A DNA stretch of 64,000 nucleotides. Origin: Candidatus Shapirobacteria bacterium. Lineage in GTDB: Bacteria; Patescibacteriota; Microgenomatia; UBA12405. The stretch's first letter is position 1; each line of letters opens with the position of its first letter. The notes under the pieces were generated by a model, which did not search any database, was not told the origin of the DNA, and saw only the letters and a program-made list of their open reading frames with translations. Shown in pieces: positions 12,738 through 62,262 of this stretch. The translations under genes were made by a program, and so were the position numbers. The stretch lies in the NCBI GenBank assembly GCA_022837635.1, contig JALHFY010000002.1, forward strand, positions 69,055-133,054. The letters run 5' to 3'.

Positions 12738-12745
12738 CTTTCCTG

Positions 12746-12829
12746 GGAGGGTTGGCCGAGTGGTTTATGGCGCTCGCCTCGAAAGCGAGTGGGTGCAAAT
12801 CCGCAGAGGTTCGAATCCTCTACCCTCCG
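12746..12829 (+). tRNA. tRNA-Ser (anticodon CGA), type II
   Basis: Acceptor GGAGGGT/ACCCTCC; anticodon stem CTCGC/GCGAG with loop CTCGAAA; long variable arm; T-arm AGAGGTTCGAATCCTCT. Confidence 0.8.
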
Positions 12830-27564: not shown

Positions 27565-28500
27565 ATGGAACAGCATCCGATTCCACAGCAAATCAGTTCC
27601 TACGAGTTCAAATTGGTAGGAGACATGACGCTGAAACAATTTGGAAAGGCGGCCGGGGGAATAATTTTGGCGGTGCTAATAAACACGACAGTTTTGCCTT
27701 TTTTTATAAAATGGCCACTAATGTTGATATCAGCAGTGGGAGGATTAGCACTGGCGTTTTTACCTTATCAAGATAGACCACTAGAAACTTGGATTGGAGC
27801 TTTTTTGAAGTCAATATATTCACCAACCGTATTTATTTATAAAAAGAAAAAGCCGGAAAACTGGTTGGATATTGACTTGACAAAAAAAATTGAAAATAAA
27901 GAGGAGGAAAAAATTGAAGTACCACAGAAGGAAGAAAGAAAAGTAAAAGAATTTATCGAGTCACTGCCGTCAGTAGAACGAGAGAGACGAGTTAAAGAGG
28001 ATTTGAAAACAGAAGAAGTGGAAAAAATTGCGGAAAAAATGGAGGAGAAGGTAAAAGAGAAACTAGAAACGAGAAAACAGAAACCAGAAATAAAACAAGA
28101 GGAGGAAACGGGGGACAAGACAAAGGGTATGGGAGTGGAGAGTCGACCCGTGGGACCTAAATTAGACTTAAAAACTCAAAAATTAGAGGCGACAGGAGAT
28201 GCGGTTTTTGGCAGTATTCCCATGCCTAGTATTCCAGAAACGCCTAATGTCTTGGTGGGAATGGTTTTGAGCACTGATAATAAAATTGTGGAAGGGGCAA
28301 TTGTGGATTTGCAAGATAAAAGTGGTAATTCAGCTAGGGTCTTAAAAACCAATCAGTTAGGTCAATTCAAAACGCTAACACCATTAAGTCCAGGAAAATA
28401 CTTAGTAGTCACGGAAAAAGAGGGCTTAAAGTTTGATCGAGTCGAAATAGAATTAGATGGAAAAATCGTGCAACCCTTAAAAATTATCGCCAAAGCTTAA
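27565..28500 (+). CDS. Membrane protein with KE-rich linker (T4SS-cluster associated)
   Basis: Two TM helices, then a charged low-complexity segment containing a heptad minisatellite. Confidence 0.35.
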   Translation: MEQHPIPQQISSYEFKLVGDMTLKQFGKAAGGIILAVLINTTVLPFFIKWPLMLISAVGGLALAFLPYQDRPLETWIGAFLKSIYSPTVFIYKKKKPENWLDIDLTKKIENKEEEKIEVPQKEERKVKEFIESLPSVERERRVKEDLKTEEVEKIAEKMEEKVKEKLETRKQKPEIKQEEETGDKTKGMGVESRPVGPKLDLKTQKLEATGDAVFGSIPMPSIPETPNVLVGMVLSTDNKIVEGAIVDLQDKSGNSARVLKTNQLGQFKTLTPLSPGKYLVVTEKEGLKFDRVEIELDGKIVQPLKIIAKA

Positions 28501-28523: not shown

Positions 28524-29225
28524 ATGAGTAATGATGCTTTAAGGTACGCCATTAAAGGTAGTACTCAGGATAATTTACCAATTGAGGATATAATTGACGG
28601 AATCGTCATCTTAAAAGATGGTTCAGCTTGTCAGGTTTTACAATTATCTTCAGTTAATTTTGATCTTTTGTCAGAAAGGGAGCAAAAAGCGTTGGTGTTT
28701 GCTTATGGAGGAATTTTGAACTCCTTAAATTTTAATATCCAAATTATTATCAACTCGACCTCTAAAGATATCGGTAATTATATGTCAAACTTGGATGCAG
28801 CCTTGCGAAGACAACCTAATCCAAAACTGAAAGAAAGAATAATTTCTTATCGTAAATTTATTGAAGAAACAGTAAAAAGAAACGATGTGTTGTCTAAAAC
28901 TTTTTACATTGCCATTCCTTTTACCAGCGCTGAAATGGGAATCAAAGGGGCACAAAAACAAATAATGGGGTCACTTAATCCAATTAAAAAGAATACTTCT
29001 CTACCCTTTTCTAAAGAATATATTTTAGAAAAAGCCAAGGCAGCTTTAGGACCAAGACAAGACCATGTGGTCAGGCTTTTTTCTAGATTGGGATTGGAGG
29101 TAAGAGCTTTGGAAACTAAAGAATTGATTGAAATGTTTTATAAACATTACAATGAAGATGATTTTTCTAGTCAAAAATTAAAAAATGTTGATTATACGGC
29201 ACCAGTGGTGACTTCAAAAACATAA
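28524..29225 (+). CDS. Hypothetical protein immediately upstream of VirB4-like ATPase
   Basis: ORF; 3-bp spacing to the next gene. Confidence 0.3.
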   Translation: MSNDALRYAIKGSTQDNLPIEDIIDGIVILKDGSACQVLQLSSVNFDLLSEREQKALVFAYGGILNSLNFNIQIIINSTSKDIGNYMSNLDAALRRQPNPKLKERIISYRKFIEETVKRNDVLSKTFYIAIPFTSAEMGIKGAQKQIMGSLNPIKKNTSLPFSKEYILEKAKAALGPRQDHVVRLFSRLGLEVRALETKELIEMFYKHYNEDDFSSQKLKNVDYTAPVVTSKT

Positions 29226-29227: not shown

Positions 29228-31579
29228 ATGGGAATATTAGATCAATTTAAGAAGAAACAAGAGGAGGCGAAACCCGTCTCCGCCCCGCCGGAGCGAGATT
29301 TTGGTGTGGCGAAAGAATTTGTGGAAGGACTGGTGTCTATAAAAGATTTGATAGCCCCTTCAGCGATTGAAGTTGATTTTAATCATATTCGAATTGATAA
29401 CAAGTATTACCGAACTTGTTTTGTAGCTGGATATCCGCGAACAGTGGGAATGAACTGGTTATCAACTTTGATTAATTTTGATGCCTCAATGAGAGTGGCG
29501 ATGTATATCTATCCGACCGACGGAAAAGCAGTGTTAGATGACCTGAGAAGGAAAATTACCGAAATGGAGGCGGAAATTAGCACTGATGTACAAAGAGGAC
29601 GACTAATTAATCCTTCAACACAAGCAAAGCTGGAGGATGCTTTGAATTTACAATCAGATTTAGTTAAGGGTGAGGAGAGGTTTTTTCAACTTGGTTTATA
29701 TATGACTATTTCAACCGATACTAAAGAAGAATTAGACAGAGTGACTAAAAATTTGGAGTCAGCGCTGGGAGCGTTGATGATAATTGCTAAAAATACCACT
29801 TTGCAAATGAACGAGGGTTTTGCCACTACCCTACCTTTGTGCTCAGATAGTATAGAAGTCACCAGAAATATGGACACCACATCATTGGCGTCAACCTTTC
29901 CTTTTGTTTCTTCTGATTTATCTGATGACAAAGGAATAATGTATGGAATTAATGAGCATAACGGTTCCTTGGTTATCTTCGATAGATTTTCAATGCAAAA
30001 CTACAACTCGGTAGTATTTGCTTCGGCGGGGGCGGGTAAATCTTACATGATCAAGTTGGAGGCGATGAGGTCGTTGATGATGGGAATAGATATTATTGTG
30101 ATTGATCCGGAAAACGAATACAGAAGTCTAGCTGATTCAGTAGGAGGTCAATATATTGCCTTTGGATATGGTGAAGAGTCGAAGATTAACCCTTTTGACT
30201 TATCACTGGTAGTAGAGGAAGGAGAAAATGCTCTTAATGACAAGGTGTTGACGCTTCATAAGATGTTTAAGATTATGATTGGTGAAATGGACCCGATTGA
30301 AGAGTCGATTTTGGATAAGGCGGTCATGGAAGCTTATCGAGCCAAAGGAATTACCCCGGATTCTGAAACTCAGAATAAAGAAGCACCTTTGATTGAAGAT
30401 TTATACAAAGCTTTGATTGGAATGGAAGAGGAAAAAGCAAAGAGCTTGGCGGCAAGATTGGAAAAATATATTAAAGGTTCTTTTGCGGGAATTTTTAACC
30501 AGAAAACAACAGTTAATTTAACTAACCAGTTTGTAGTCTTTGGAATTAGAAATTTGGAGGAAAGTTTAAGGCCAGTAGCGATGCATATTATTTTGGACTA
30601 TATTTGGACGGTAGTTAAAAAAGAATTAAAAAAGCGGATTTTGGTGGTGGATGAGGCTTGGTATTTAATGCAATATGAAGATTCGGCGGCTTTCTTGAGA
30701 GGAATTGTAAAAAGAGGTCGAAAGTATTATCTGGGAGTAACGACAATTACCCAGGATGTAGATGACTTTCTACAAACAGCTTATGGTAAAGAAATTGTGA
30801 CCAATAGCGCCATTCAAATATTGCTTAAACAACATAGTGCCGCCATAGAATTGATTGGCAAAACTTTTTATTTGTCTGAAGGAGAAAAACAACTACTATT
30901 GTCAGCTGATAAAGGTGAGGGAATATTCTTTGCGGGACAAAACCATGTAGCAATACAGGTAATCGCCTCAAAAGAAGAACATGATTTAATAACTTCAAAT
31001 CCTGAGGATTTATTGAGAAAGAAAATTGCCCAAAAACAGGCGGATTTGGTAAAAGAAAAGTTGCCAATAAACGAAGAAGAGGTAAATCCACCCCCAACCC
31101 CTCCTTTGGAGAAAGGAGGGGAGAGGCCTGACTCCACTAGCTCCGACGTGGCAAGGCCCGCCTCCGTTCAACAAAATAAAAACTTCGGCGTGGCGAAGCC
31201 TGAAGAACAGAAGCCTTTCGTGGTGGAGGTTGAGGAGACCCCAGAACAGAAATTAAAAAAGAGAATTGAGGAAATGGAGGCACAGGAAAAAACAGAGGAG
31301 GCGAAACCCGTCTCCGCCCCGCCGCTGCGGGACTCCGATGTGGCAAGGCCCGCCTCCGAAATGCCGAAATCTCAAGAATTGTTTAAGGCTGGGACATCAA
31401 CAGCTAAAAAACCGGTGTTTTTAATCAACCAACAAGAAGAGGTAAAAATTCCTCAACCACCACAGTTGGTAAAGAAACCCGTCTCCGCCCCGCCGGAGCG
31501 GGGCTCCGATGTGGCAAGGCCTGAAGATAAGAATAAATTAACCTACGAAGAATTGTTCGGAAATGATAAACAAGTTTAG
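29228..31579 (+). CDS. VirB4/TraC/TrbE-like type IV secretion ATPase with repeat-built C-terminal tail
   Basis: Walker A FASAGAGKSY; Walker B ILVVDEAWYLM; 783 aa; residues ~620-783 consist of GC-rich repeat units. Confidence 0.7.
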   Translation: MGILDQFKKKQEEAKPVSAPPERDFGVAKEFVEGLVSIKDLIAPSAIEVDFNHIRIDNKYYRTCFVAGYPRTVGMNWLSTLINFDASMRVAMYIYPTDGKAVLDDLRRKITEMEAEISTDVQRGRLINPSTQAKLEDALNLQSDLVKGEERFFQLGLYMTISTDTKEELDRVTKNLESALGALMIIAKNTTLQMNEGFATTLPLCSDSIEVTRNMDTTSLASTFPFVSSDLSDDKGIMYGINEHNGSLVIFDRFSMQNYNSVVFASAGAGKSYMIKLEAMRSLMMGIDIIVIDPENEYRSLADSVGGQYIAFGYGEESKINPFDLSLVVEEGENALNDKVLTLHKMFKIMIGEMDPIEESILDKAVMEAYRAKGITPDSETQNKEAPLIEDLYKALIGMEEEKAKSLAARLEKYIKGSFAGIFNQKTTVNLTNQFVVFGIRNLEESLRPVAMHIILDYIWTVVKKELKKRILVVDEAWYLMQYEDSAAFLRGIVKRGRKYYLGVTTITQDVDDFLQTAYGKEIVTNSAIQILLKQHSAAIELIGKTFYLSEGEKQLLLSADKGEGIFFAGQNHVAIQVIASKEEHDLITSNPEDLLRKKIAQKQADLVKEKLPINEEEVNPPPTPPLEKGGERPDSTSSDVARPASVQQNKNFGVAKPEEQKPFVVEVEETPEQKLKKRIEEMEAQEKTEEAKPVSAPPLRDSDVARPASEMPKSQELFKAGTSTAKKPVFLINQQEEVKIPQPPQLVKKPVSAPPERGSDVARPEDKNKLTYEELFGNDKQV
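29276..29323. repeat. GC-rich hairpin repeat family B copy (intragenic)
   Basis: gcgaaacccgtctccgccccgccggagcg... (GCCCCGC nnnn GCGGGGC palindrome). Confidence 0.7.
31085..31126. repeat. GC-rich hairpin repeat family A copy (intragenic)
   Basis: aatccacccccaacccctcctttggagaaaggaggggagagg. Confidence 0.75.
31301..31350. repeat. Repeat family B copy (intragenic)
   Basis: gcgaaacccgtctccgccccgccgctgcgggactccgatgtggcaaggcccgcctccg. Confidence 0.75.
31474..31522. repeat. Repeat family B copy (intragenic)
   Basis: gaaacccgtctccgccccgccggagcggggctccgatgtggcaaggcc. Confidence 0.75.
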
Positions 31580-31593: not shown

Positions 31594-34500
31594 ATGGCTG
31601 AGTTGTTTTTGAATATTAATACCCTGGTTTTGGCACTAAAAGGATTAAAAGAGAAGAGTTTGTTAGAAGATAGAGATTTGTATGATGAAACCCGAGAAGT
31701 TTTTAGAAAATTAAACTTATTAAGTGATTTTAACGAGAAAGATCTTCAAAAGATTATTCAAAAATTGGAGGCTTTACCTCCAGAAATAAAAGAAAAAGAT
31801 TTAAGGGAATTAGAGGGCGGGCAAGAAAAGAAGTTGGAAAGTGATCTTAGTCAAAAGAAACTGGAAGAGTTGATTGAAACTTACGAAAAATCTCAAGATA
31901 GCAAAGAAAAGGAGAAGATATCTCGTGAGATTTATTTGAGAACTGGCGAAAAAGATGTGGCTCTGTTTATAGAGAAGCAAAGAGAGTTGGCGGCAGAAAA
32001 ACTCAGCTCTGTCTCAACAGAAAAGGATTTTGAGATGGTAAAGCGAACCTATAGACAGGAAGGAACAATAGAAATTCAAGTAAAACTTGAAAAAGAAATA
32101 AAAACTGAAAGTGAAGAATTAGAAGCAAGAATAAAAGAGGAAAAAACTAAACAGGTAGTGAAAGAGGCAACAAAAAGTGAGAATTTTAATGAAAAAATAT
32201 TAGTAGAAACACTAAAGAGAAATTTAATAGATCCAAAAGAAATAAAAAAAGTAGTGGCGGAGGTTAAGAAAATCAGAAAAGAAAAAGAGAAAACTGAAAA
32301 AATAAACACAGAAATAAAAAAAGCGATTTATGAAGAAAAAAATGATTTAAGGAAAAAATTAGAAGAAAAATACGAGAAAAACAGTAATGAAATACAAGAA
32401 ATTTTAAGAAAAGTAGATCAAGTTAAGGCGGAAATAAAAGTAGAAGCCGAAGCAAAGAAAATTGTAGAAAAAGTTTTTGAAAAATTAAAAGAAGAATCTC
32501 TGCCTATAAACGAGAATTCTCAACTGGAATTAAAACAGGCAATTTTGAATTCCTGGGAAAACAACGAAAAATTGGTATTACCAAAAGAAATAGAGGGATT
32601 GACTAATAAAACAACAGTAGTAAGGGAGTTGTTGGTATCAGTGGATAAGTTCAAAAAAGAGGAACTAGTAACAATAATAAATTTCAGGGCTAGTAAACTT
32701 GAAGAAAAAGTAACTAGATCTTTAAGGGAATCAGGAGTTCAAAACGAAGAGTTGATTGCAGAATATACGGCTGTTTTAAGTGAATTCTATAACGACTCTA
32801 ATAGTTTGGTCGCAGAAATTAATATAGACGAATCTGTTAATTTTGTAAGATCGATGGTACCTCAAGCCAGTTTATGGCAAGCAGAAGAAAGTGTTCGAGA
32901 AGCTCAGTTTTTAGCAAAAAATTTAGTTAAGTCTCCAAAAAGATTTAATACACTTCTAAACAGATATAACTTGGTTCGTGACAAAATTGGAATAGAAAAT
33001 TTACCTAAAGTGGAAGAAGCTAGAGTAACAGAAAAAATCACTAATTTTTTATCTAAGAGTCCTCAAACATTAAAGCTTTTAGGTCGTGCTCAAAGGATTG
33101 GGAGCGTGGTAGCTCAAATACAAGGTTTTCCAAAAACCTTGTTCTTAAAAGGAACAGAAAAAGTGTCGGGCTTTGTTTTTGAAAAAATAGGTAATCAAGC
33201 AATGGCCTCTTTTGTCCAAAATTCGGCGGCAGTAATTGCCAAAGAAGGAAGCACAAAAGGAATTACTTTGATTTTAAAATCGGTTTTAAGTAAAGGGGCA
33301 GTGGTGGCTGGAGAAACTGCAGCTGGAGGCGCGGCTGGTGGTGGAGCTTTAGCAGGAGCAGTAGCTGCTTTTCAGGCGTTACCAGTAGTAGGTCAAGTAA
33401 TTGCTGTAGTAACTTTGGTGGTAACAGCAGTAGTTGTAGTAGCGAAGTCGGTTATTAAAACATTAAAGGGTTTGGTAGAAAAAATTCTGGGGACAAAACT
33501 AAATCAGATTCAGAGGTTTCTGTCGGAAGATTTAGGTTTAGGAAAGTTTGCTGGAAAAGTAGGTCAATTTCTTTTTGATCTCTGGGTGTTTTTGGTGGGA
33601 ATACCAAAAATGCTAAGACTATTAAAAACTGGTGCAGTTGTATCTCCAGTAATCGGTTTTTTCTTTATTGGTACTTTTGCGTATACTTTGTTTCAACACC
33701 AACAGGTTTCATCAATAGTACCACCAACTGATTTAAGTGGATGTATCTTGAAGAGAGGAAGTGGTCCCGGAGGGACGGCTCAAATTGGAGAGGTAAACTG
33801 TGATCCTAATGCTCCAGAAAATGAAGTGCCTGGTTTAAGAGGAGGTAAAGCTAATTATGTCCGAATTGCTAATCAATGGTGGTCGGGAAAGAATTATGCA
33901 GAGGAATGTTTTAATGATGTAGTTAACAGATCTTTGTGTGCCGGTATTAATCCTTTGTATTCTCTGTGGGCTTGGGTCCATGAGTCAGGAGCAAGTAATT
34001 ATGACCATGGTAATGTTCAGGATTTTGGGATAAACGACAGTTCAATTGAAAATAATTTTGATGCTCAAATTAAAATTTTTTTGAACCTAGATCCAGCTAG
34101 TGCTTGTGATTTAAGCGACCCTAAATTAAGTGGTCCGGATGGTTATTGGTTGGCCTGGGCATCTCGTTATTTAACAGGTCAATGTGATCCGGATGTAGGT
34201 CAAGCACAGACCGGGAATACAGGAAGAGAGTATTTTAATGATATGAAAAACAAAACCTGGGATTGGATAGCTAGTGTGCCAATTCCAAAAGATATTTATG
34301 TGGAAAAAGGTGGAAAAAATTGTGAACAGGCGGGAGCACCTTTGGCTCTAACTGGACCAACTAAAGAAATTATTGGAGACGATGGTCAAGTCTATATATG
34401 TAGTACTGGTGGAAGCGGAGGACCATCAATGATTAGTCCAGGAGGAGCGCCAGTAGCCGGTTCTATTACTCAATGCCCCTTTGACTCTTTTAGTCACGGG

Positions 34501-34851
34501 AATTCTTGGGCAATTGACTGGGGAGCACCCTTTGGAACACCGATTTATTCAACCTTTTCCGGTATAGCGCGATTGGGAGAAGGAAATGGTTACGGATTTT
34601 ATGTGGATATACACAGTAACTATAATGGGGATGATTTTTTTATCCGTTATGCGCATATGCCTCCAGGTGGATACACTGTTGGAGACGGTGAAGCGGTGGC
34701 GGCAGGTCAACAGATTGGAATAGTGGATAATACCGGTTTTTCTACAGGGAATCATTTGCATTATCAAGTATTTGGGGCCAATATTGATTGGGATAATGCT
34801 GGACCTTATTTTGGTTTAACCCAAGAGGAATTTAACAGTGCCTGTCGATAA
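31594..34851 (+). CDS. Large coiled-coil/TM protein with C-terminal cell-wall hydrolase region (M23 peptidase; possible lysozyme-like part)
   Basis: K/E-rich coiled coil; TM segments; M23 motifs HGNSWAIDW and GNHLHYQV. Confidence 0.6.
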   Translation: MAELFLNINTLVLALKGLKEKSLLEDRDLYDETREVFRKLNLLSDFNEKDLQKIIQKLEALPPEIKEKDLRELEGGQEKKLESDLSQKKLEELIETYEKSQDSKEKEKISREIYLRTGEKDVALFIEKQRELAAEKLSSVSTEKDFEMVKRTYRQEGTIEIQVKLEKEIKTESEELEARIKEEKTKQVVKEATKSENFNEKILVETLKRNLIDPKEIKKVVAEVKKIRKEKEKTEKINTEIKKAIYEEKNDLRKKLEEKYEKNSNEIQEILRKVDQVKAEIKVEAEAKKIVEKVFEKLKEESLPINENSQLELKQAILNSWENNEKLVLPKEIEGLTNKTTVVRELLVSVDKFKKEELVTIINFRASKLEEKVTRSLRESGVQNEELIAEYTAVLSEFYNDSNSLVAEINIDESVNFVRSMVPQASLWQAEESVREAQFLAKNLVKSPKRFNTLLNRYNLVRDKIGIENLPKVEEARVTEKITNFLSKSPQTLKLLGRAQRIGSVVAQIQGFPKTLFLKGTEKVSGFVFEKIGNQAMASFVQNSAAVIAKEGSTKGITLILKSVLSKGAVVAGETAAGGAAGGGALAGAVAAFQALPVVGQVIAVVTLVVTAVVVVAKSVIKTLKGLVEKILGTKLNQIQRFLSEDLGLGKFAGKVGQFLFDLWVFLVGIPKMLRLLKTGAVVSPVIGFFFIGTFAYTLFQHQQVSSIVPPTDLSGCILKRGSGPGGTAQIGEVNCDPNAPENEVPGLRGGKANYVRIANQWWSGKNYAEECFNDVVNRSLCAGINPLYSLWAWVHESGASNYDHGNVQDFGINDSSIENNFDAQIKIFLNLDPASACDLSDPKLSGPDGYWLAWASRYLTGQCDPDVGQAQTGNTGREYFNDMKNKTWDWIASVPIPKDIYVEKGGKNCEQAGAPLALTGPTKEIIGDDGQVYICSTGGSGGPSMISPGGAPVAGSITQCPFDSFSHGNSWAIDWGAPFGTPIYSTFSGIARLGEGNGYGFYVDIHSNYNGDDFFIRYAHMPPGGYTVGDGEAVAAGQQIGIVDNTGFSTGNHLHYQVFGANIDWDNAGPYFGLTQEEFNSACR

Positions 34852-53405: not shown

Positions 53406-53410
53406 AGTTA

Positions 53411-55141
53411 TTAGGTTGTGGGTGGTGGGTCGATGTTAGCACCTGAGTTTTCTGGAATAACCACTGCTTTATCTCCTTTACCGAATCGCTGAAGAACTGC
53501 TTGTCCAGTTTTGGTGCCAATTTGGACAACAGTATCTCCAAATTTCTTACCTGCAGACTCAGAAACACTTCTTCCCATTTTGGCAAACATAGTGTTGTTA
53601 AGACTTTCTCCAATGGCCTTACCAAAATCTGGAGCTTTCATGCTTTTAATTGTATCAGGAACTAATTCAGGAAGTTTGGATAAAAGAGCGAGGCCGGCCA
53701 TACCGATAGCGGCGGAAATGACTAGGGTAGGGGTGCCTAAAAGTTGGGAAACAGTACCGGTAGTAAGTGGTCCAGGTGTCCAGGCAGTAGCACTTCCACT
53801 ACTAATGACACCCCAGGTGAGAGAGTCGATAATTAGATTAAGAAGAACCAAGAAAATGCCAACTACCGGAAAAACGGCTATATTGGAAACAAGATCTAGA
53901 ATCCAGGTGTTAAAACCCATTTTAGAATTAGGAAAGGCGCCGGTGGCGATTTCTAAAGGGGCGAGAACAATTTTGAAGATGATAGTGACATAGTTCTTAA
54001 CTAGACCAAAAAAGAGTTTGATTAGCCAAATAACAACTAAAATAGTGAGAATCAAAGGAATGAGCATTCCGCCGACAAGACCACCACCAATAGCTCCAAC
54101 AGCTTGAGTGGCATTTCTTATGCCGATTTTGCTTAAAAAATTAATAAAAGTATTACCTGAGGTTAGGCTAGTACCGATAACACTACCGATGATATTGCCT
54201 AAAGTACCTCCAAGGAGCATTAACGAAAAGCCTCCAGGAACGGCTCGTTGAGTCAGATGTTGAATGGTGGGAATGTTGGGATTACTAAGATCGTCAAAAT
54301 TATAACTATAGCCACCAACATAAGAAGTGACGGAGGAGATAACTTGCTTAATAAAATCAATAATTTTGGTGATACCGTCACTATTGGCTCCTAGTTGAGA
54401 AATTAAATTAATTGCCCAAGAGTCGGAGAATAAAGCGCTGTCTAAACTGACACCTTTAACGGAAAAAAGCATCGCTACAACGATAGCCTGAATGATATTG
54501 GCTAAGTCGATAACAAGACCAGCAATAGCGTAGGAAAAGGTAACTAGAATTAAGGTGGTAATGATTTGAGGAACAGCACTTTGAATGGTAATAACTGCTT
54601 GTGGACTAACTTTGACCCTAAGAATAATCATAATTCCAATAATTAGGAAAATGATGGTGGAAAAAACGTAGACCATGTTTCTAAAACCCCTCCATAGAGG
54701 TAGGAGGAATTGAAGTCCTTGAAAACCAATACCTTGGGCATATGCTGGTTTACCTAAAAAATTATCTTTAACTTGGGCAATATATTCGATGCCTGAAGCT
54801 GGGGGAGTGTGTAATGAAGCTATCATAGTGTTGAGATTACCAACAGCACCTCCAGGAAAGTAATGAAAGGTGGTGGAGTTCTGGTCAGGTTCGAGCAATT
54901 CTTTTGGTATTTCGCCGATTAGACCGGTAAACAGAGAAATCATATTGCTGCTCATGGCTTCATTAGTCCAAGATTCTAGGCCAGTGTTATTTTTGATGGC
55001 GTCTTGTTTTTGAATAAAAAGTTGGCTGCTAGTGTTATCGGTGCTAGTGTCTGGTGATTGGGCTAAACTATTGACAGGGAAGAAAACGAAAAGAATGAAA
55101 AAAGTTGTGAGTAGAATTTTGGTAAAAAGGCTTTTTGCCAT
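53411..55141 (-). CDS. VirB6/TrbL-like polytopic membrane protein (T4SS channel component candidate)
   Basis: Signal peptide, then ~8 TM helices and a Gly-rich C-terminal region; adjacent to the pilin array. Confidence 0.4.
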   Translation of the reverse strand: MAKSLFTKILLTTFFILFVFFPVNSLAQSPDTSTDNTSSQLFIQKQDAIKNNTGLESWTNEAMSSNMISLFTGLIGEIPKELLEPDQNSTTFHYFPGGAVGNLNTMIASLHTPPASGIEYIAQVKDNFLGKPAYAQGIGFQGLQFLLPLWRGFRNMVYVFSTIIFLIIGIMIILRVKVSPQAVITIQSAVPQIITTLILVTFSYAIAGLVIDLANIIQAIVVAMLFSVKGVSLDSALFSDSWAINLISQLGANSDGITKIIDFIKQVISSVTSYVGGYSYNFDDLSNPNIPTIQHLTQRAVPGGFSLMLLGGTLGNIIGSVIGTSLTSGNTFINFLSKIGIRNATQAVGAIGGGLVGGMLIPLILTILVVIWLIKLFFGLVKNYVTIIFKIVLAPLEIATGAFPNSKMGFNTWILDLVSNIAVFPVVGIFLVLLNLIIDSLTWGVISSGSATAWTPGPLTTGTVSQLLGTPTLVISAAIGMAGLALLSKLPELVPDTIKSMKAPDFGKAIGESLNNTMFAKMGRSVSESAGKKFGDTVVQIGTKTGQAVLQRFGKGDKAVVIPENSGANIDPPPTT

Positions 55142-55160
55142 AGTTTATTGTAACAAAATA

Positions 55161-56609
55161 TTACCAAGATGCGGGGCGAAGTAAAGAGCGCATTTCTTGA
55201 TACAAAAGATCAGAACGGAAACCGGGATCAACGACATTAGCTTTATCGTTGGCAGGGGTTTTACTGGAAAAACTTTTAGTCAGTAATTGTTTTTTGTCTA
55301 GGGAATCTGAGGGAATCATATTGGAAAAGGCTTGTTCACTAATTTGAACATTTTCCACAATCTGATTATCGTAGGTACTAGTGGTAGGAATAGAGACGCT
55401 TTTACTAAAGTTTTCGCCAGCTAAAACTCGTTTAATTAAACCTTTAACGAAGGTGGCTAGATTTTTTCTTTGAGGTTTGTCTCGGGAAACGTATGGACTA
55501 ACTTTACTATCATTACAAATATCGGTATTATCAAGAGGTTTTTGTTGACTAGGGTTGACAAAACTGAGGGTGGTTGACTGAGGTGAATAGGCAGCGGCGG
55601 CATTGGGTAGGGTGCGGTTGTGAGTTTCGTCAACAGGATTGATAGGATGGTCATTGGCAGTGTCGTAACCATTATAATTAGTAACCACGACTCGACTATT
55701 GACGTTACCTTTGGGGATGTAATTGAGTTGTTTATAGAAAAGAAAATAATCCTCTTTTGGTAGAGGAACAAAGCTTTTGCCGCCAGAACGTTGTGAATAA
55801 CAGCCGTAGGTACCGCAAGAACCACTATAGTGACTGAGGACTGGGGTGAGAATTTTTTGAGGAAAGTTTTCGGGTGGAGAATCGGGGGTGGAATAGTAAA
55901 GCTTTTCATTTTGAAGTCCAAAAATAAGTTCACTGAGATAAACAGGTCGACAGGAGCTGGTTTTAGTTTCATCTTGAGTCATTTCCATACAAGTACCTTG
56001 GCAGTCCCAAGCGATTTGATAGTCTTGAGTGACAGTATCAAGTTGTTGACTGTTATTTAAGGACATGGCGGCTTGGGTAAGGAATTGACTGCGATAGTAA
56101 TTAATTTGGGTGGTGGGCAAGGAGCGCAAAGAAGCACTAGATCCAGTCATTTCGAGGCTAAGGAAGCTGTTTTTAGCCCTGGCTTCGGTACACTTGATGC
56201 TGCCTCTAGCAAAGAAAGATTGGAAGTTTCGGTAATATTCGTTGGAGAGGTTATTAAGATCAATTTGGCCATCTAAGTCTTGGGCATCGTAATCTTGGTA
56301 GATGTTTTCTGTGTATTTATTACCATTGACGTCAGTTTTTACAACTTCAGTTTTATGATCGTCGGCAGACCAACTTCTTCCGGCTTCACCATGACCACTA
56401 CAAGTGACTGTGTCTTCAGTCAAGGTGTTGGAATAAGAATCGTCGCTAGGGATTTCTGGGGCAATGGCTTGGTCGGGAGCTTTACGTTCAGTTTGATCTT
56501 TAATTTGTAGGGAAGGGAAGAGTTTTTGCCAAAAGCTAGCGGCATAAGCTGGAGAAGTAGTAAAAAAGAGAAAAAATAAAGTAGAAAATATAAAAATTAG
56601 TTTTTTCAC
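55161..56609 (-). CDS. Secreted Cys-rich protein (possible pilus-associated adhesin)
   Basis: Signal peptide MKKLIFIFSTLFFLFFTTSPAYA; about 12 Cys. Confidence 0.4.
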   Translation of the reverse strand: MKKLIFIFSTLFFLFFTTSPAYAASFWQKLFPSLQIKDQTERKAPDQAIAPEIPSDDSYSNTLTEDTVTCSGHGEAGRSWSADDHKTEVVKTDVNGNKYTENIYQDYDAQDLDGQIDLNNLSNEYYRNFQSFFARGSIKCTEARAKNSFLSLEMTGSSASLRSLPTTQINYYRSQFLTQAAMSLNNSQQLDTVTQDYQIAWDCQGTCMEMTQDETKTSSCRPVYLSELIFGLQNEKLYYSTPDSPPENFPQKILTPVLSHYSGSCGTYGCYSQRSGGKSFVPLPKEDYFLFYKQLNYIPKGNVNSRVVVTNYNGYDTANDHPINPVDETHNRTLPNAAAAYSPQSTTLSFVNPSQQKPLDNTDICNDSKVSPYVSRDKPQRKNLATFVKGLIKRVLAGENFSKSVSIPTTSTYDNQIVENVQISEQAFSNMIPSDSLDKKQLLTKSFSSKTPANDKANVVDPGFRSDLLYQEMRSLLRPASW

Positions 56610-56998
56610 GGATTCCCGGGGATTTGGAATATAGTAACGTTAACACCGGTAAATTTTTGAATGAAATTAAGAATTAGCCAGGAAGCAATGACACCAACTA
56701 GACCGATGATGGCCATAGTGAGGGTGGAAGAAGCGGAGGCTAGTTTTTTTTCATCACCACCACTAGTGAGGTATTTGAAACCACCGCTAATGAACATAAA
56801 GAAAAAAGCCAGACCGGCAATAACTACTATTATTTGGAGAATGTTGGCAAAAAGACATTCAAAACCTTGGATGGTAGCGACATCACCTTGGGTAACGCAG
56901 CGACCTGTCCAAGTGCCATCGGAAGCAACTTGAGCTAGAGCTGGATGCACAAATAAGAAACAAGAAACTAGAAACCAGAAACAAGAGAGTTTTTTCAT
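56606..56998 (-). CDS. VirB2/TrbC-like pilin paralogue 1
   Basis: Signal peptide; TM1; loop SGGDEKKLASASST; TM2 IIGLVGVIASWLIL. Start set at MKKLSCF. Confidence 0.55.
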   Translation of the reverse strand: MKKLSCFWFLVSCFLFVHPALAQVASDGTWTGRCVTQGDVATIQGFECLFANILQIIVVIAGLAFFFMFISGGFKYLTSGGDEKKLASASSTLTMAIIGLVGVIASWLILNFIQKFTGVNVTIFQIPGNP

Positions 56999-57021
56999 AA
57001 CTACATTATAGTATAAAGTCC

Positions 57022-57049
57022 AAAAAAAACCCCCTGCAGAGGCAGGGGG
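57022..57049 (-). terminator. Rho-independent terminator after pilin paralogue 2
   Basis: On the minus strand: CCCCCTGC-cucu-GCAGGGGG followed by U8. Confidence 0.8.
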
Positions 57050-57068
57050 TGTGAACTCTACCAAGAAT

Positions 57069-57410
57069 TTATTTGTTGAAGGTAGGAACAGAGATACCAC
57101 TTAAGAGAGTGATACCAAAGACGGTTTCAATCAATTTCATAATGGCAAAGGCGGCAAAAACGATAGCCAAGCCAATGAGAGCATTAGTGATCTGAGTACG
57201 GGCGGTAGCCACAGCTTTTTCATCACCACCGGCCATAACCCACTTGAGTCCGCCGAGAATTAACATAAAGAAGAATACCAGAGCCACAATTAACATAACT
57301 AAGGAAATGGCACCGGAAACGATACCACCGATAGTCATTTTAGTGACTTCTGAACCAAATTGATCTTTGGGGTTAAGTTCGATTACTTGTTTAGCAGCGA
57401 TAAGTTTCAT
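57069..57410 (-). CDS. VirB2/TrbC-like pilin paralogue 2 (followed by strong terminator; candidate major pilin)
   Basis: TM1 IGGIVSGAISLVMLIVALVFFFMLILGGL; loop GGDEKAVATARTQ; TM2 ALIGLAIVFAAFAI. Confidence 0.55.
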   Translation of the reverse strand: MKLIAAKQVIELNPKDQFGSEVTKMTIGGIVSGAISLVMLIVALVFFFMLILGGLKWVMAGGDEKAVATARTQITNALIGLAIVFAAFAIMKLIETVFGITLLSGISVPTFNK

Positions 57411-57461
57411 TTTTTTAGAGAATTAATAATTAATTAATGAAGTTTAACAATAAATTAAGAT

Positions 57462-57791
57462 TTAGGAAAGAGTGGGCCAGGTAAGTACTAATTTTTCTAG
57501 GTCTTGGATACCTAGAACGTAACCAATAAATTTAAGAATAGCAAAGACGGCAAAGACGATACCTAAGCCTAAAATAGCGTTAATCATTTCGGTTCGGGAG
57601 GTTTCGACGCGTTTAGGATCACCTTGGTTATTAATCATATGATAACCGGACATGATAAAGTGCCAAACGAACCAAATGACGGCAACAATAAAGAAAATAG
57701 AAAAAATTGCCTGAACGACACTGTTGGTATATCCAGTAGGATCATCTATTTGTTTTTCGCAGTTTGTGAGGATAGGGTTGCAGATAGCCAT
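57462..57791 (-). CDS. VirB2/TrbC-like pilin paralogue 3
   Basis: Same architecture (GDPKRVETSRTEMINAILGLGIVFAVFAIL). Confidence 0.5.
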   Translation of the reverse strand: MAICNPILTNCEKQIDDPTGYTNSVVQAIFSIFFIVAVIWFVWHFIMSGYHMINNQGDPKRVETSRTEMINAILGLGIVFAVFAILKFIGYVLGIQDLEKLVLTWPTLS

Positions 57792-57796
57792 TTTGG

Positions 57797-58144
57797 TTAA
57801 ATTTTAATACTTCTAAAGAAAGCTTCAAGATCAAAAGGATTGGAGAGACCAAGAAGTTTAGCCAAAAGAGCGGCTAAACCAGTAGCAATAACAACAATAA
57901 AAATACCTAAAATACCGTTAGTGAGTTTAGACCAACCTTCTTCGATTTTTTTAGGATCACCGTGGGCGGTCATCAAGCCATATCCAGCCAGGATTATTTG
58001 AATAGCAAACCAAATAACGGCAACAATGGTTAAAACTCCCATGACATTACTAATAAGTTTTTCTAGAGCGGTGGTGGCTTCAACACCATCACTTGGGTTG
58101 AGGCCGGGACCGTCTAATGAGAATTTTTCAGCAATAAGTTTCAT
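57797..58144 (-). CDS. VirB2/TrbC-like pilin paralogue 4
   Basis: Start set at MKLIAEKF (parallels paralogue 2 MKLIAAKQ); GDPKKIEEGWSKLTNGILGIFIVVIATG. Confidence 0.5.
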   Translation of the reverse strand: MKLIAEKFSLDGPGLNPSDGVEATTALEKLISNVMGVLTIVAVIWFAIQIILAGYGLMTAHGDPKKIEEGWSKLTNGILGIFIVVIATGLAALLAKLLGLSNPFDLEAFFRSIKI

Positions 58145-58145
58145 A

Positions 58146-58475
58146 TTATGGTTGAGTTTGTGGACCAGTAATCTCAGGATTAAGAATGTCAATGCCGAAG
58201 AGACGACCAACAACACCAGCGATAACCATAGCGGCGGAGACTATAAGGATGCCGACGAGACTTTGCCAAATTTTAGTCCAAGCAGCTTCGGCTTTTTTAG
58301 GATCGCCACTAGCATTGAGGTAGTCATAACCACCCATAATTAATTGAACGACAAGAATAATACCAGCGATAACACCAGCTAATTTTAAGAGGTTGCTGAA
58401 GAAGGTGAAGAAACCGCTACCAGCTACGCTGGGGTATTGAGTAGGGTTGTCGATGGTGCCAAAAATAGAAAGCAT
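58146..58475 (-). CDS. VirB2/TrbC-like pilin paralogue 5
   Basis: GDPKKAEAAWTKIWQSLVGILIVSAAMVIAG. Confidence 0.5.
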   Translation of the reverse strand: MLSIFGTIDNPTQYPSVAGSGFFTFFSNLLKLAGVIAGIILVVQLIMGGYDYLNASGDPKKAEAAWTKIWQSLVGILIVSAAMVIAGVVGRLFGIDILNPEITGPQTQP

Positions 58476-58478
58476 GGT

Positions 58479-58805
58479 TTATAGAATAGAGAGCCCGGTA
58501 AGGACTTCTATAATTTGAATTATAAAGTAACTAAGGAAAATTACCAAGAAGCCAATCAAGGAATTGGTAATCATGGATTTAGCAGTAGCAGCTTGTTTTT
58601 GGTCACTGGAACCAGCTGAGACTATCATCATAATTCCACCGGCAATAATAAGAATTAAAAAGATAATTCCGGCTAAGGTTAGGGAGTTTTTGACAATAAT
58701 GTTGACTAAAGTGGTTTCGTCGGGGTAGGTGTTGGAAATGGGTTTTCCGTTGTCGATAGGCAAATCACCGATGTTTACTTGGGAGATAAGTCGAGTTAAT
58801 TTCAT
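58479..58805 (-). CDS. VirB2/TrbC-like pilin paralogue 6
   Basis: Start set at MKLTRLI; SSDQKQAATAKSMITNSLIGFLVIFLSYFII. Confidence 0.5.
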   Translation of the reverse strand: MKLTRLISQVNIGDLPIDNGKPISNTYPDETTLVNIIVKNSLTLAGIIFLILIIAGGIMMIVSAGSSDQKQAATAKSMITNSLIGFLVIFLSYFIIQIIEVLTGLSIL

Positions 58806-58928
58806 ATTGATACCTAGATTATATAACAAAGATAGGAAATAATGGTGTTATAATACGCCACCTTATCAAGCTAGTGACTAGTTATTAGTAATTAGTTAAT
58901 AGTTTTATAATTAGATATTAAAACAGAA

Positions 58929-59750: not shown

Positions 59751-59782
59751 TTAGTTAATAGTAAATAGTTAGTAGTAAAATA

Positions 59783-62141: not shown

Positions 62142-62142
62142 C

Positions 62143-62262
62143 CAATAACCAAAAAACAATTTCCAAACAAATTACAAATAACAAATCTCAAACTCTTGGT
62201 AATTTGGAATTTGAAAAATTGGAAATTGTTTGTATCTTGTGATTTTGGTTATTGGAATTTAT
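62143..62262. repeat. Intergenic repeat related to 41044-41196
   Basis: caaatctcaaactcttggtaatttgg ... ttgtttgtatcttgtgattttggttattggaattt. Confidence 0.8.

What the first reader, a model, noticed from the sequence alone, without database searches (positions are those of the whole stretch)
53411..58829. Six tandem VirB2/TrbC-like pilin paralogues with a VirB6-like protein and a secreted Cys-rich protein
Six consecutive small genes of 109-130 aa on the minus strand share one architecture. Each has a leader, a hydrophobic helix, a short polar loop with a G(G)D(E/P)KK motif, and a second hydrophobic helix. That is the T-pilin/TrbC fold. The array is followed by a secreted 482-aa Cys-rich protein and an ~8-TM VirB6/TrbL-like protein. 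A strong rho-independent terminator (57022-57049) follows only paralogue 2, consistent with a highly expressed major pilin. Together with the VirB4-like ATPase and the M23/lysozyme-like hydrolase at 29-35 kb, this outlines a type-IV-secretion-like DNA-uptake or conjugation apparatus split by the origin region. Such a system may be used for episymbiotic attachment or DNA uptake.
Basis: partly seen in the sequence, partly recalled or inferred. Interest (0 to 1): 0.65.

Follow-up and report, generated by a model that had tools for sequence, protein, structure and literature searches.

The report
Six-pilin type IV secretion module
This stretch of a Shapirobacteria-like ultrasmall bacterium encodes six different VirB2-type pilins, a secreted protein and a probable VirB6-like membrane platform, a gene set already described in these bacteria but seen here in an unusually fixed layout.

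Summary
Six small genes lie on the minus strand at 56606-58805. All six match Pfam T4SS_pilin; five pass the curated cut-off, P1 misses it by 0.6 bits, and P3 also passes TrbC/VirB2. A VirB3/TrsD/VirB4/M23 module lies at 27.5-34.9 kb, across dnaA-dnaN.

VirB2-like pilin arrays in Patescibacteria are already published (Wang 2023; Quinonero-Coronel 2025), so this is a new member of a known kind.

What I add:
- **Fixed order.** 56 of 58 species-level relatives with enough upstream DNA carry six pilins; all 56 keep the order P1-P6 except one slot in L059. Best hits were positional in 120 of 120 comparisons, which argues against interchangeable variants.
- **Two operons.** A hairpin terminator follows P5 in 48 of 56 loci and any other pilin in 0-1 of 56. 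A TATAAT box sits 5-8 nt before the P6 ATG, implying P1-P5 as one unit and P6, the secreted protein and the membrane protein as another.
- **VirB6 link is remote.** The top six PDB fold hits are TrwI/VirB6 (E 0.03), and three relatives give sub-threshold TrbL hits.
- **Secreted protein.** It has a confident model with no known fold and occupies a highly variable slot.

Function is inferred: a pilus or conduit for host contact.

The parts
58818..58823 (-). Putative -10 box (TATAAT) of the P1-P5 transcription unit, 12 nt upstream of the P1 ATG.
   Evidence: Read from the sequence. An exact TATAAT lies upstream of P1 in 86% of 56 related loci, against 0-7% in coding controls. Its distance to the ATG is 2-15 nt. 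It is a consensus match only; no transcript data exist.
58479..58805 (-). P1, a VirB2-like pilin paralogue of 108 aa. The mechanical ORF extends to a TTG at 58829.
   Evidence: PF18895 at 26.0 bits, just under the 26.6 cut-off. Two TM helices. Positional orthologues in 56 loci, with 50% mean pairwise identity.
58146..58475 (-). P2, a VirB2-like pilin paralogue of 109 aa.
   Evidence: PF18895 at 36.5 bits. Positional orthologues.
57797..58144 (-). P3, a VirB2-like pilin paralogue of 115 aa. The mechanical ORF extends to 58216.
   Evidence: PF18895 at 35.9 bits, and PF04956 TrbC/VirB2 at 28.8 bits against a cut-off of 27.9.
57462..57791 (-). P4, a VirB2-like pilin paralogue of 109 aa, with two N-terminal Cys.
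   Evidence: PF18895 at 35.1 bits..
57069..57410 (-). P5, a VirB2-like pilin paralogue of 113 aa. It is the most conserved of the six and the last gene of the first transcription unit.
   Evidence: PF18895 at 30.8 bits. Mean pairwise identity among 57 orthologues is 62%, against 47-55% for the other five. Weak hit to NCBIfam NF045849, a Mycoplasma ICE pilin-like family: 24.7 bits against a cut-off of 40.
57021..57050 (-). Intrinsic terminator: a 9-bp stem with 7 G-C pairs, a 4-nt loop and a T7 run. It separates P1-P5 from P6.
   Evidence: An equivalent hairpin plus T-run follows P5 in 48 of 56 related loci, against 0-1 of 56 after any other pilin gene. The stem sequences differ between loci.
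57005..57010 (-). Putative -10 box (TATAAT) of the second transcription unit, 6 nt upstream of the P6 ATG. This spacing implies a leaderless mRNA.
   Evidence: Sequence. TATAAT is present in the P5-P6 gap in 66% of loci, against 11% in the more AT-rich P4-P5 gap. The spacing to the in-frame ATG is 5-8 nt, mostly 6, in 45 loci.
56606..56998 (-). P6, a VirB2-like pilin paralogue of 130 aa. It is the only one with a canonical signal peptide, and it has a conserved Cys pair in the extracytoplasmic N-region.
   Evidence: PF18895 at 43.8 bits, the best of the six. Three hydrophobic segments including the signal peptide. The motif C-V-x3-D-V-A-T-I-Q-G-x-E-C is conserved in 57 orthologues.
55161..56609 (-). 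Secreted 482-aa protein (signal peptide, 8 Cys). Its GTG start overlaps the P6 stop codon. It occupies a variable 'slot' between P6 and the membrane protein.
   Evidence: No Pfam, NCBIfam or PDB sequence hit. 31 homologues. AF2 model with pLDDT 86.8 and pTM 0.82, with no credible PDB fold match; best probability 0.10. In relatives the slot protein is 240-1119 aa with 2-24 Cys, and only about half are detectably homologous.
53411..55141 (-). 576-aa polytopic membrane protein, the candidate VirB6/TrbL-like pilus assembly platform. It has a conserved core and hypervariable loops.
   Evidence: 6-7 hydrophobic segments. No Pfam hit itself, but 3 of 29 relatives hit PF04610 TrbL at 17.6-19.6 bits. 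The AF2 model has pLDDT 65.5. Foldseek PDB ranks 1-6 are all R388 TrwI/VirB6; the best has E 0.033 and probability 0.96. Relatives occur in 244 species genomes, always downstream of the pilin array. It is 57% identical to the L001 copy, where flanking genes are 83-96% identical.
27565..28500 (+). PrgI/VirB3-like protein (311 aa) of the partner ATPase module.
   Evidence: PF12666 PrgI at 37.4 bits against a cut-off of 27. Two TM segments.
28524..29225 (+). TrsD-like protein (233 aa), resembling the N-terminal region of VirB4.
   Evidence: NCBIfam TrsD at E 1.3e-7, far below its cut-off. Also matches the N-terminal parts of VirB4 models.
29228..31579 (+). VirB4-like ATPase (783 aa).
   Evidence: NCBIfam conju_CD1110 at 391 bits against a cut-off of 325. 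Pfam TraG P-loop and AAA_10 domains.
31594..34851 (+). 1085-aa protein with a C-terminal M23 peptidase domain and three central hydrophobic segments. Likely the cell-wall hydrolase of the system.
   Evidence: PF01551 at 54.3 bits.. Peptidase and lysozyme homologues downstream of virB4 are essential in Southlakia, as reported in PMC12102498.

Best explanation
The region is the pilin and platform half of the chromosomal, Patescibacteria-type type IV secretion system of a Shapirobacteria-like (Microgenomatia) bacterium. The system is related to monoderm MPF-FATA conjugation machines.

**Shown here**
- There are six anciently diverged VirB2-like pilins, each with its own 1:1 orthologue in the same position in relatives.
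- Conserved sequence signals imply two transcription units. Unit 1 is a -10 box, P1-P5, then a terminator. Unit 2 is a -10 box placed for a leaderless mRNA, then P6, a signal-peptide protein of highly variable sequence, and a conserved polytopic membrane protein.

**Inferred mechanism**
- The pilins insert into the membrane as helical hairpins, with the short basic G-D-x-K loop on the cytoplasmic side.
- The polytopic protein acts like VirB6: a membrane platform on which pilins are recruited.
- The VirB4 ATPase, encoded with VirB3-like, TrsD-like and M23 hydrolase genes about 18 kb away across dnaA-dnaN, levers the pilins out of the membrane into a filament or conduit through the wall.
- The six pilins are non-redundant parts of one structure. 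P5 is the best candidate for the main building block. P6 may be an initiator or adaptor made together with the platform.
- The variable secreted protein takes the place of VirB5 by gene position, as a distal, host-contacting component.

The apparatus most likely serves contact with, or exchange with, a host cell rather than conjugation.
For: - **Pilin identity.** PF18895 hits for all six genes, PF04956 for P3, and the conserved two-helix plus G-D-x-K loop architecture.
- **T4SS partners in the window.** PrgI, TrsD-like, VirB4 at 391 bits, and an M23 hydrolase.
- **Non-redundancy.** The best hit of pilin i in another genome is pilin i in 120 of 120 comparisons. Orthologues share 41-87% identity, paralogues 24-30%. 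Of 58 species-level loci with a full upstream region, 56 have six pilins; apart from one slot in L059 they read P1-P6 in that order.
- **Operon structure.** A terminator follows P5 in 48 of 56 loci and other pilin genes in 0-1 of 56. TATAAT is enriched before P1 (86%) and before P6 (66%) but not before P5 (11%). The 5-8 nt TATAAT-to-ATG spacing at P6 is seen in 45 loci.
- **Platform.** Foldseek's top six PDB hits are TrwI/VirB6. Three relatives give colinear sub-threshold TrbL hits. This is the only protein with six or more hydrophobic segments among the T4SS-associated proteins run through the hydropathy scan.
- **Variable slot.**
- **Literature.** A six-pilin array plus a structure-inferred VirB6 is essential in Southlakia (PMC10633639 and its supplement; PMC12857230). 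VirB2 arrays and T4SS genes near dnaA are described across Patescibacteria (PMC12102498). The VirB6/VirB5/VirB2 assembly model comes from R388 (PMC9259494).
Against: - No experiment or transcript data exist for this organism. Promoters, the leaderless start and termination are consensus-level inferences.
- VirB6 membership fails the curated threshold. Profile comparisons with PrgH, Tn916 Orf15 and R751 TrbL gave nothing. The model is of only moderate confidence (pLDDT 65.5) and the TM-scores are low.
- The secreted protein has no VirB5-like fold, so its tip role rests on gene position and variability alone.
- No pilus has been seen in any Patescibacterium (PMC12857230 calls it a possibility).
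- P1-P5 lack canonical signal peptides, so their insertion and processing are unclear.
- The window ORFs scanned show no relaxase or coupling protein, but the rest of the genome was not available.
Confidence: 0.7

Rival explanations
1. The paralogues are interchangeable variants. Tandem amplification and divergence would provide antigenic or host-range variation, as proposed for Bartonella and Anaplasma VirB2 arrays and suggested for Patescibacteria in PMC12102498.
For: - Paralogues are very divergent, at 24-30% identity. This matches the 25% average reported in PMC12102498.
- One relative, L068, has three P5-type copies, so duplication does occur.
- The neighbouring secreted protein and the loops of the membrane protein are hypervariable, which shows host-facing diversification at this locus.
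Against: - Number and order are fixed in 56 of 58 species-level loci.
- Positional orthology is perfect, 120 of 120.
- Each paralogue has its own conserved signature, for example the P6 Cys pair and signal peptide.
- P1-P5 appear co-transcribed rather than alternatively expressed.
- No silent cassettes or recombination repeats were noticed.
Confidence: 0.12
2. The small proteins are T4SS membrane subunits that never form an extended pilus. They would make a short stalk or channel lining through the monoderm envelope, like the pilin-like protein of Mycoplasma ICE T4SSs. The 5+1 layout would then reflect channel stoichiometry rather than a filament.
For: - P5 and P6 give weak hits to the Mbov_0395 pilin-like conjugal transfer family, and VirB4 matches the Mbov_0397 ICE ATPase at 290 bits.
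- Monoderm T4SSs generally lack pili (PMC12102498).
- No pilus has been observed in Patescibacteria (PMC12857230).
Against: - The NCBIfam hits are far below the cut-off (22-25 bits against 40).
- The best family match is to VirB2-type pilins of pilus-forming systems.
- A variable secreted partner is easier to explain if it is displayed at a distance from the cell.
Confidence: 0.25
3. The 576-aa protein is not a VirB6 relative. It would be an unrelated lineage-specific membrane protein, such as a transporter or anchor, that merely sits next to the pilins.
For: - No Pfam, NCBIfam or PDB sequence hit for the window protein.
- None of about 240 listed relatives carries a precomputed Pfam domain.
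- hhalign and hmmsearch against PrgH, Orf15 and TrbL give no signal above controls.
- Foldseek E-values are only 0.03-0.4, with TM-scores of 0.3.
Against: - Six of the top six hits among 350,542 PDB chains are VirB6, and DotA is at rank 8.
- Three independent relatives align colinearly to positions 39-212 of the 215-position TrbL profile.
- Linkage to the pilin array held in every related locus whose upstream DNA reaches it, except L024.
- Southlakia's VirB6 was likewise recognisable only by structure.
Confidence: 0.25
4. The small genes are unrelated small membrane proteins, such as holins or bacteriocin-immunity proteins, and the T4SS resemblance is chance.
For: One marginal hit of P2 to Phage_holin_3_6, at E 0.059.
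Against: - All six hit the same pilin family, at E 1e-5 to 3e-11.
- No lysis or phage genes are adjacent.
- T4SS partners are present.
- The same family is annotated in the essential T4SS cluster of Southlakia.
Confidence: 0.02

Closest known systems
Essential T4SS cluster of Ca. Southlakia epibionticum ML1 (SEML1_0006-0019; Wang et al. 2023, PMC10633639)
   Same: - Chromosomal T4SS with PrgI, VirB4, a peptidase or lysozyme, and a VirB6 recognisable only by structure.
- Exactly six consecutive PF18895 pilins.
- No recognisable relaxase or coupling protein in the cluster.
- A larger gap (83 nt) precedes the sixth pilin there as well.
   Different: - In Southlakia the pilins sit inside one cluster with VirB4, and the VirB6-like gene (over 1085 aa) precedes the array.
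- Here the pilin, secreted-protein and VirB6-like module lies about 18 kb from the VirB4 module, on the other side of dnaA-dnaN.
- Here the platform follows the array, and a variable secreted protein is inserted between them.
- Whether the six paralogues are orthologous between the two classes was not tested.
VirB2 arrays of Patescibacteria (Quinonero-Coronel et al. 2025, PMC12102498)
   Same: - Arrays of 2-11 VirB2-like genes with about 25% identity, most abundant in Microgenomatia and Saccharimonadia.
- T4SS genes near dnaA and dnaN.
- TrsD and PrgI next to VirB4, and M23-containing hydrolases.
   Different: - That survey reports VirB6 as scarce in Microgenomatia and proposes host-range variation for the arrays.
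- It does not mention orthology or terminators.
- The present data give a candidate VirB6 family for this class, strict positional orthology and a conserved two-operon layout.
VirB2/VirB5/VirB6 pilus-assembly core of Gram-negative conjugative T4SSs (R388 Trw; PMC9259494)
   Same: - Two-helix pilins.
- A polytopic platform whose best structural matches are TrwI/VirB6.
- A secreted protein encoded between the pilin and platform genes, as virB5 lies before virB6.
- A VirB4 ATPase with a VirB3 partner.
   Different: - Six distinct pilins instead of one.
- A monoderm envelope, with no VirB7, VirB9 or VirB10 seen.
- The secreted protein lacks the VirB5 helical fold.
- Most of the pilins lack the long cleavable leader.
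- No VirB11, VirD4 or relaxase in the window.
Mycoplasma ICE T4SS (Mbov_0395 pilin-like protein and Mbov_0397 VirB4; NCBIfam NF045849 and NF045975)
   Same: - A monoderm MPF-FATA-type VirB4, matched at 290 bits.
- A small two-helix pilin-like protein encoded near it. P5 and P6 hit that family weakly.
   Different: - The hits are below the curated cut-offs.
- Mycoplasma ICEs are mobile elements with a single pilin-like gene. This is a fixed chromosomal six-gene set.

Membership tests
Pfam PF18895 T4SS_pilin | HMM score at or above the gathering cut-off of 26.6 bits | tested here: met
   P2 36.5, P3 35.9, P4 35.1, P5 30.8 and P6 43.8 bits. P1 scores 26.0, which is 0.6 bits short, but it is a clear paralogue and has orthologues in 56 loci.
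Pfam PF18895 T4SS_pilin | Small protein with two hydrophobic helices joined by a short polar or basic loop | tested here: met
   Two TM segments in each protein, plus a signal peptide in P6. The loop carries invariant G, D and K residues.
Pfam PF18895 T4SS_pilin | Encoded together with T4SS machinery (VirB4) | tested here: met
   VirB4 at 29228-31579 in the same window, 25 kb away. The two are not adjacent.
Pfam PF18895 T4SS_pilin | Assembles into an extracellular pilus | not testable with these tools
   No imaging or proteomics is available. This is also unproven for any Patescibacterium (PMC12857230).
Pfam PF04956 TrbC/VirB2 | HMM score at or above the gathering cut-off of 27.9 bits | tested here: inconclusive
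   Only P3 passes, at 28.8 bits. The other five gave no TrbC hit at E up to 1. hhalign of the six-pilin alignment against R751 TrbC alone found nothing.
Pfam PF04956 TrbC/VirB2 | Long N-terminal signal peptide removed by signal peptidase | tested here: not met
   Only P6 has a canonical signal peptide. P1-P5 have hydrophilic N-regions with a short leader-like start. Actual cleavage could not be tested.
VirB6/TrbL (Pfam PF04610) | HMM score at or above the gathering cut-off of 25.9 bits | tested here: not met
   The window protein has no hit. Three of 29 relatives score 19.6, 18.4 and 17.6 bits, aligned colinearly to profile positions 39-212 of 215.
VirB6/TrbL (Pfam PF04610) | Polytopic membrane protein with five or more hydrophobic helices | tested here: met
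   A signal-peptide-like segment plus six further hydrophobic segments, and long helices in the AF2 model.
VirB6/TrbL (Pfam PF04610) | Structural similarity to a solved VirB6 (TrwI of R388) | tested here: inconclusive
VirB6/TrbL (Pfam PF04610) | Encoded within a T4SS locus next to pilin or VirB genes | tested here: met
   It lies directly downstream of the pilin array, here and in every related locus whose upstream DNA reaches the array, except L024.
VirB5/TraC pilus-tip protein | Elongated three-helix-bundle fold with a globular appendage | tested here: not met
   A confident mixed beta/alpha model (pLDDT 86.8) has no VirB5 or TraC hit among PDB matches; the best probability is 0.10. The protein resembles VirB5 only in being secreted and encoded just upstream of the VirB6-like gene.
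Patescibacteria-clade T4SS (related to MPF-FATA) | VirB4 of the monoderm CD1110/PrgJ type, with PrgI/VirB3 and TrsD neighbours | tested here: met
   conju_CD1110 at 391 bits (cut-off 325). PrgI at 37.4 bits (cut-off 27). The TrsD-like match has E 1.3e-7 but is below its cut-off. No VirB4 phylogeny was made.
Patescibacteria-clade T4SS (related to MPF-FATA) | No relaxase or coupling protein associated with the cluster | tested here: inconclusive
   Neither was found among the window ORFs scanned. Some short ORFs and the rest of the genome were not examined.

The most novel reading that the evidence does not exclude
The six pilins may be fixed, non-interchangeable subunits of one heteromeric T4SS filament. 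The five co-transcribed pilins P1-P5 would each supply one strand of the five-start helix that sits on a pentameric VirB6-like base. P6 would be made from a separate leaderless operon together with the platform and a hypervariable tip protein, and would act as initiator or adaptor. If the six paralogues prove orthologous to the six essential pilins of Saccharibacteria, this 5+1 heteromeric pilus would be an ancestral feature of Patescibacteria. It would also be the first T4SS pilus built from several different pilins.
Probability: 0.1. Interest if true: 0.85.

Novelty: new member of a known kind. Interest (0 to 1): 0.4.

Why it matters
The T4SS of Patescibacteria is essential for epibiotic growth in the one species tested, and its function is unknown (PMC10633639, PMC11665869).

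This locus adds no new kind of system. The comparison it prompted does give three testable constraints:
- The pilin set is a fixed six-member complement, not a variable repertoire.
- The set is split 5+1 by a conserved terminator and promoter.
- In Microgenomatia, where VirB6 was reported as scarce, a conserved 530-590-aa membrane protein family next to the array is the obvious VirB6 candidate.

The hypervariable secreted protein and the hypervariable loops of the platform are natural candidates for host-specificity determinants.

Tried and rejected
- **Holin or other small-membrane-protein reading.** Rejected: there is only one marginal holin hit (E 0.059), against six consistent pilin hits.
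- **Direct sequence link of the 576-aa family to VirB6.** All of the following gave nothing:
  - phmmer and a profile search against PDB sequences;
  - hhalign against pCF10 PrgH, Tn916 Orf15 and R751 TrbL as single sequences;
  - hmmsearch of the family HMM against those three plus eight control proteins;
  - a third large homologue search seeded with the three TrbL-like relatives, which returned 638 relatives, none of the 120 listed carrying a precomputed Pfam domain.
- **VirB5 identity for the 482-aa protein.** Rejected on fold and on sequence.
- **A promoter private to P5**, which would make it a separately expressed major pilin. Not supported: TATAAT occurs in only 11% of P4-P5 gaps although they are 80% A+T.
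- **Other checks.** Rfam found only three tRNAs, none near the locus. The 682-aa convergent neighbour has no Pfam, NCBIfam or PDB match.
- **Not run.** I did not run the representative-library HMM search, because its top 150 hits would all be in-family and could not bridge to TrbL.

Full report
**What is there.** On the minus strand of 53411-58829 lie eight co-oriented genes. After choosing plausible start codons, which agree with gene calls in close relatives, they are:

| Gene | Coordinates | Length |
|---|---|---|
| P1 | 58479-58805 | 108 aa |
| P2 | 58146-58475 | 109 aa |
| P3 | 57797-58144 | 115 aa |
| P4 | 57462-57791 | 109 aa |
| P5 | 57069-57410 | 113 aa |
| P6 | 56606-56998 | 130 aa |
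| secreted protein | 55161-56609 | 482 aa |
| polytopic protein | 53411-55141 | 576 aa |

The GTG start of the 482-aa gene overlaps the P6 stop codon. The six small proteins share 24-30% identity with P1. Each has two hydrophobic helices joined by a loop with invariant G, D and K residues. A strong intrinsic terminator follows P5: stem at 57050-57029 with 7 of 9 G-C pairs, then T7. Only P6 has a canonical signal peptide, the 482-aa protein has 8 Cys, and hydropathy gives 6-7 hydrophobic segments for the 576-aa protein.

**What the small proteins are.** All six match Pfam PF18895 (T4SS_pilin) at 26.0-43.8 bits against a cut-off of 26.6; only P1 is marginally below. P3 also passes PF04956 TrbC/VirB2. 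P5 and P6 weakly resemble the pilin-like protein of Mycoplasma ICEs. The only holin-type hit is marginal, at E 0.059.

T4SS partners are present at 27.5-34.9 kb:
- a PrgI/VirB3-like protein;
- a TrsD-like protein;
- a VirB4 of the monoderm CD1110 family, at 391 bits against a cut-off of 325;
- a 1085-aa protein ending in an M23 peptidase.

dnaN and dnaA lie between the two modules, at 36.1-38.9 kb. GC skew does not flip anywhere in the window, so the origin is inferred from gene content only. The window ORFs scanned show no relaxase or coupling protein.

**Organism and literature.** Homologues of the two large proteins come almost entirely from Candidatus Shapirobacteria and Woesebacteria, that is Microgenomatia in the Patescibacteria.

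This kind of locus is already described:
- Wang et al. 2023 found an essential T4SS in Southlakia epibionticum with a series of predicted pilins. Their supplement lists a structure-inferred VirB6 (SEML1_0013) followed by six PF18895 pilins, SEML1_0014-0019.
- Quinonero-Coronel et al. 2025 report 441 VirB2 arrays of 2-11 genes with about 25% identity, most abundant in Microgenomatia and Saccharimonadia. They also report T4SS genes near dnaA, TrsD and PrgI next to VirB4, and M23-bearing hydrolases. They find VirB6 'scarce' in Microgenomatia and suggest the arrays may help adaptation to different hosts.
- That paper does not mention orthology or terminators.

The finding is thus a new member of a known kind.

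**The six pilins are a fixed set.** In four related contigs spanning 43-57% identity of the large membrane protein, the layout is always the same. Three ATP-grasp genes (one ATPgrasp_ST, two RimK-like) and a 7TM_transglut gene point one way. Six pilins, a 418-481-aa protein and a 534-574-aa polytopic protein point the other way. A large convergent gene follows.

The best BLAST hit of pilin i in any other genome is pilin i in 120 of 120 comparisons. Orthologues share 41-87% identity, far above the 24-30% between paralogues.

A scan of one genome per species found relatives of the membrane protein in 244 genomes. Among the 80 loci kept:
- 58 carry a full upstream pilin region; 56 of these have six pilins, classified P1-P6 in order in all but L059;
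- L068 has three P5-type copies, eight pilin genes in all;
- L059 has an atypical fourth gene;
- L024 gave no pilin hits despite a full 8 kb of upstream DNA.

P5 is the most conserved, at 62% mean pairwise identity against 47-55% for the others. P6 keeps its signal peptide and a Cys pair. This pattern fits six non-redundant subunits and does not fit a rapidly turning-over repertoire.

**Conserved regulatory layout.**
- A hairpin plus T-run follows P5 in 48 of 56 loci, and any other pilin gene in 0-1 of 56. The stems differ in sequence but keep their pairing.
- An exact TATAAT occurs upstream of P1 in 86% of loci and in the P5-P6 gap in 66%. It occurs in only 11% of P4-P5 gaps, although these are 80% A+T, and in 0-7% of coding controls.
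- At P6 the TATAAT ends 5-8 nt, mostly 6, before the in-frame ATG in 45 loci. In the window the box is at 57010-57005 and the ATG at 56998. That spacing implies a leaderless mRNA.

I therefore infer two transcription units: P1-P5, and P6 with the secreted protein and the membrane protein. The terminator closes a five-gene operon. P5's higher conservation still makes it the best major-subunit candidate. All of this is sequence-level inference without transcript data.

**The 576-aa protein.** It has no Pfam, NCBIfam or PDB sequence hit, and none of about 240 listed relatives carries a Pfam domain.

Evidence for VirB6 likeness:
- Three of 29 relatives give colinear sub-threshold hits to PF04610 TrbL/VirB6: 19.6, 18.4 and 17.6 bits against a cut-off of 25.9, covering profile positions 39-212 of 215.
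- An AF2 model of moderate quality (pLDDT 65.5) has R388 TrwI/VirB6 chains as its six best matches among 350,542 PDB chains, with DotA at rank 8. The statistics are weak, however: E 0.03-0.4, probability 0.54-0.96, TM-score about 0.3.
- Linkage to the pilin array held in every related locus whose upstream DNA reaches it, except L024, and it is the only protein with six or more hydrophobic segments among the T4SS-associated proteins run through the hydropathy scan.

I rate 'works like VirB6' at roughly 0.7. Formal family membership is not met.

Between the window and a strain whose flanking genes are 83-96% identical, this protein is only 57% identical. The divergence is concentrated in residues of about 230-350 and 440-480 and in the C-terminal tail, and the nucleotide alignment breaks at 53119-54522.

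**The 482-aa protein.** It has a signal peptide, conserved cysteines and a conserved C-terminal motif. It has 31 detectable homologues. The AF2 model is confident (pLDDT 86.8, pTM 0.82) but has no credible structural neighbour in the PDB; the best probability is 0.10. It has no sequence match to solved structures either.

In relatives the same slot holds a signal-peptide protein of 240-1119 aa with 2-24 Cys. Only about half are detectably related to this one, some with an N-terminal extension of about 300 aa. It is not a VirB5 by fold. Its position between a pilin gene and the VirB6-like gene, its secretion and its variability make a distal, host-contacting role the most economical guess.

**Mechanism (inferred).** By analogy with the R388 model, VirB2 subunits dock on a VirB6 pentamer, are levered up by VirB4, and grow a five-start filament beneath VirB5 (PMC9259494). 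I propose the following:
- The pilins insert as helical hairpins.
- They are recruited by the 576-aa platform.
- They are assembled by the VirB3/TrsD/VirB4 module, after the M23 protein opens the wall.
- The variable secreted protein sits at the far end.

Published genetics in Saccharibacteria indicate that the homologous system is essential for epibiotic growth and is probably not conjugative. Its real cargo or role is unknown.

A more speculative reading is that the five co-transcribed pilins each fill one strand of a five-start helix, with P6 as initiator. I give this about 0.1.

**Verdict.** The system is a known kind. The comparative regularities give it moderate specialist interest: a fixed order, a 5+1 operon split, a candidate Microgenomatia VirB6 and a hypervariable secreted slot.

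Noticed in passing
window 58929-63172 (+); also L001, L004-L006 and 52 of the loci L007-L086: A divergently transcribed cluster shares the 99-123-nt promoter region with P1. It comprises 7TM_transglut (58929-59750), ATPgrasp_ST (59783-61165) and two RimK-like ATP-grasp genes. A 7TM_transglut homologue lies within 600 nt upstream of P1, on the opposite strand, in 52 of 52 loci that have six pilins and enough upstream DNA. This could be plain synteny, or a functional link such as peptide modification of a surface component.
   Followed up: partly
window 51357-53405 (+): A 682-aa cytoplasmic-looking protein with no TM segment and no Pfam, NCBIfam or PDB hit. It converges on the VirB6-like gene with only 5 nt between the stop codons. 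tblastn recovers it in only 20 of 80 related loci, at about 27% median identity and always convergent. Its last ~95 codons fall in the same stretch, unalignable at nucleotide level between close strains, as the membrane protein.
   Followed up: partly
window 53119-54522: A local hypervariable patch between near-identical strains. blastn to L001-L003 aligns both flanks at 81-87% identity but not this 1.4 kb, which covers the 3' ends of two convergent genes. This could reflect diversifying selection or a recombination replacement.
   Followed up: partly
P1, P3 and P5 N-termini (window 58805, 58144, 57410) and their orthologues: P1-P5 lack full signal peptides but begin with a short conserved M-x(1-6)-L-(L/I)-A-like motif, for example MKLTRLISQ, MKLIAEK and MKLIAAKQ. 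Some orthologues carry longer A-x-A-type leaders, for example ...ALIAVPAYAA. How these N-tails cross the membrane, and whether they are cleaved, is unexplained.
   Followed up: partly
L068:3437-5263: One relative has three consecutive P5-type genes, eight pilin genes in all. This is the only clear recent duplication seen among 58 arrays.
   Followed up: no
Southlakia SEML1_0017-0019 (supplement of PMC10633639): The sixth pilin of the Saccharibacteria array is preceded by an 83-nt gap, against 20 nt between the fourth and fifth. This is reminiscent of the P5-P6 terminator and promoter gap here.
   Followed up: no
window 1-64000: GC skew is positive across the whole window and does not change sign at dnaA-dnaN (36.1-38.9 kb). 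The replication origin is therefore not evident from skew.
   Followed up: no
window 1-10000: The first 10 kb has lower G+C (0.30-0.32, against 0.35-0.42 elsewhere). It contains a glycosyltransferase gene at 7423-8676, and a polysaccharide deacetylase gene follows at 10477-11442, just outside this stretch. It is possibly a horizontally acquired surface-glycan cluster.
   Followed up: no
window 49588-51237 (-) and 46839-47240 (+): A DUF6909 protein (514 bits) is a conserved neighbour of the module, found in 42 of 80 loci. An RNHCP-domain protein, FtsH and a DUF4012 protein are syntenic across relatives. Their functions are unknown.
   Followed up: no
L007, L009, L014, L018 and many others: Many public MAGs that carry this Shapirobacteria-type locus are titled 'uncultured Gammaproteobacteria', 'Lactobacillales' or 'Candidatus Methanoperedens'. 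These are probably mislabelled bins or records.
   Followed up: no
window 11976-12829 and 12906-13859: Three tRNA genes lie next to an N6/N4 DNA methylase gene.
   Followed up: no
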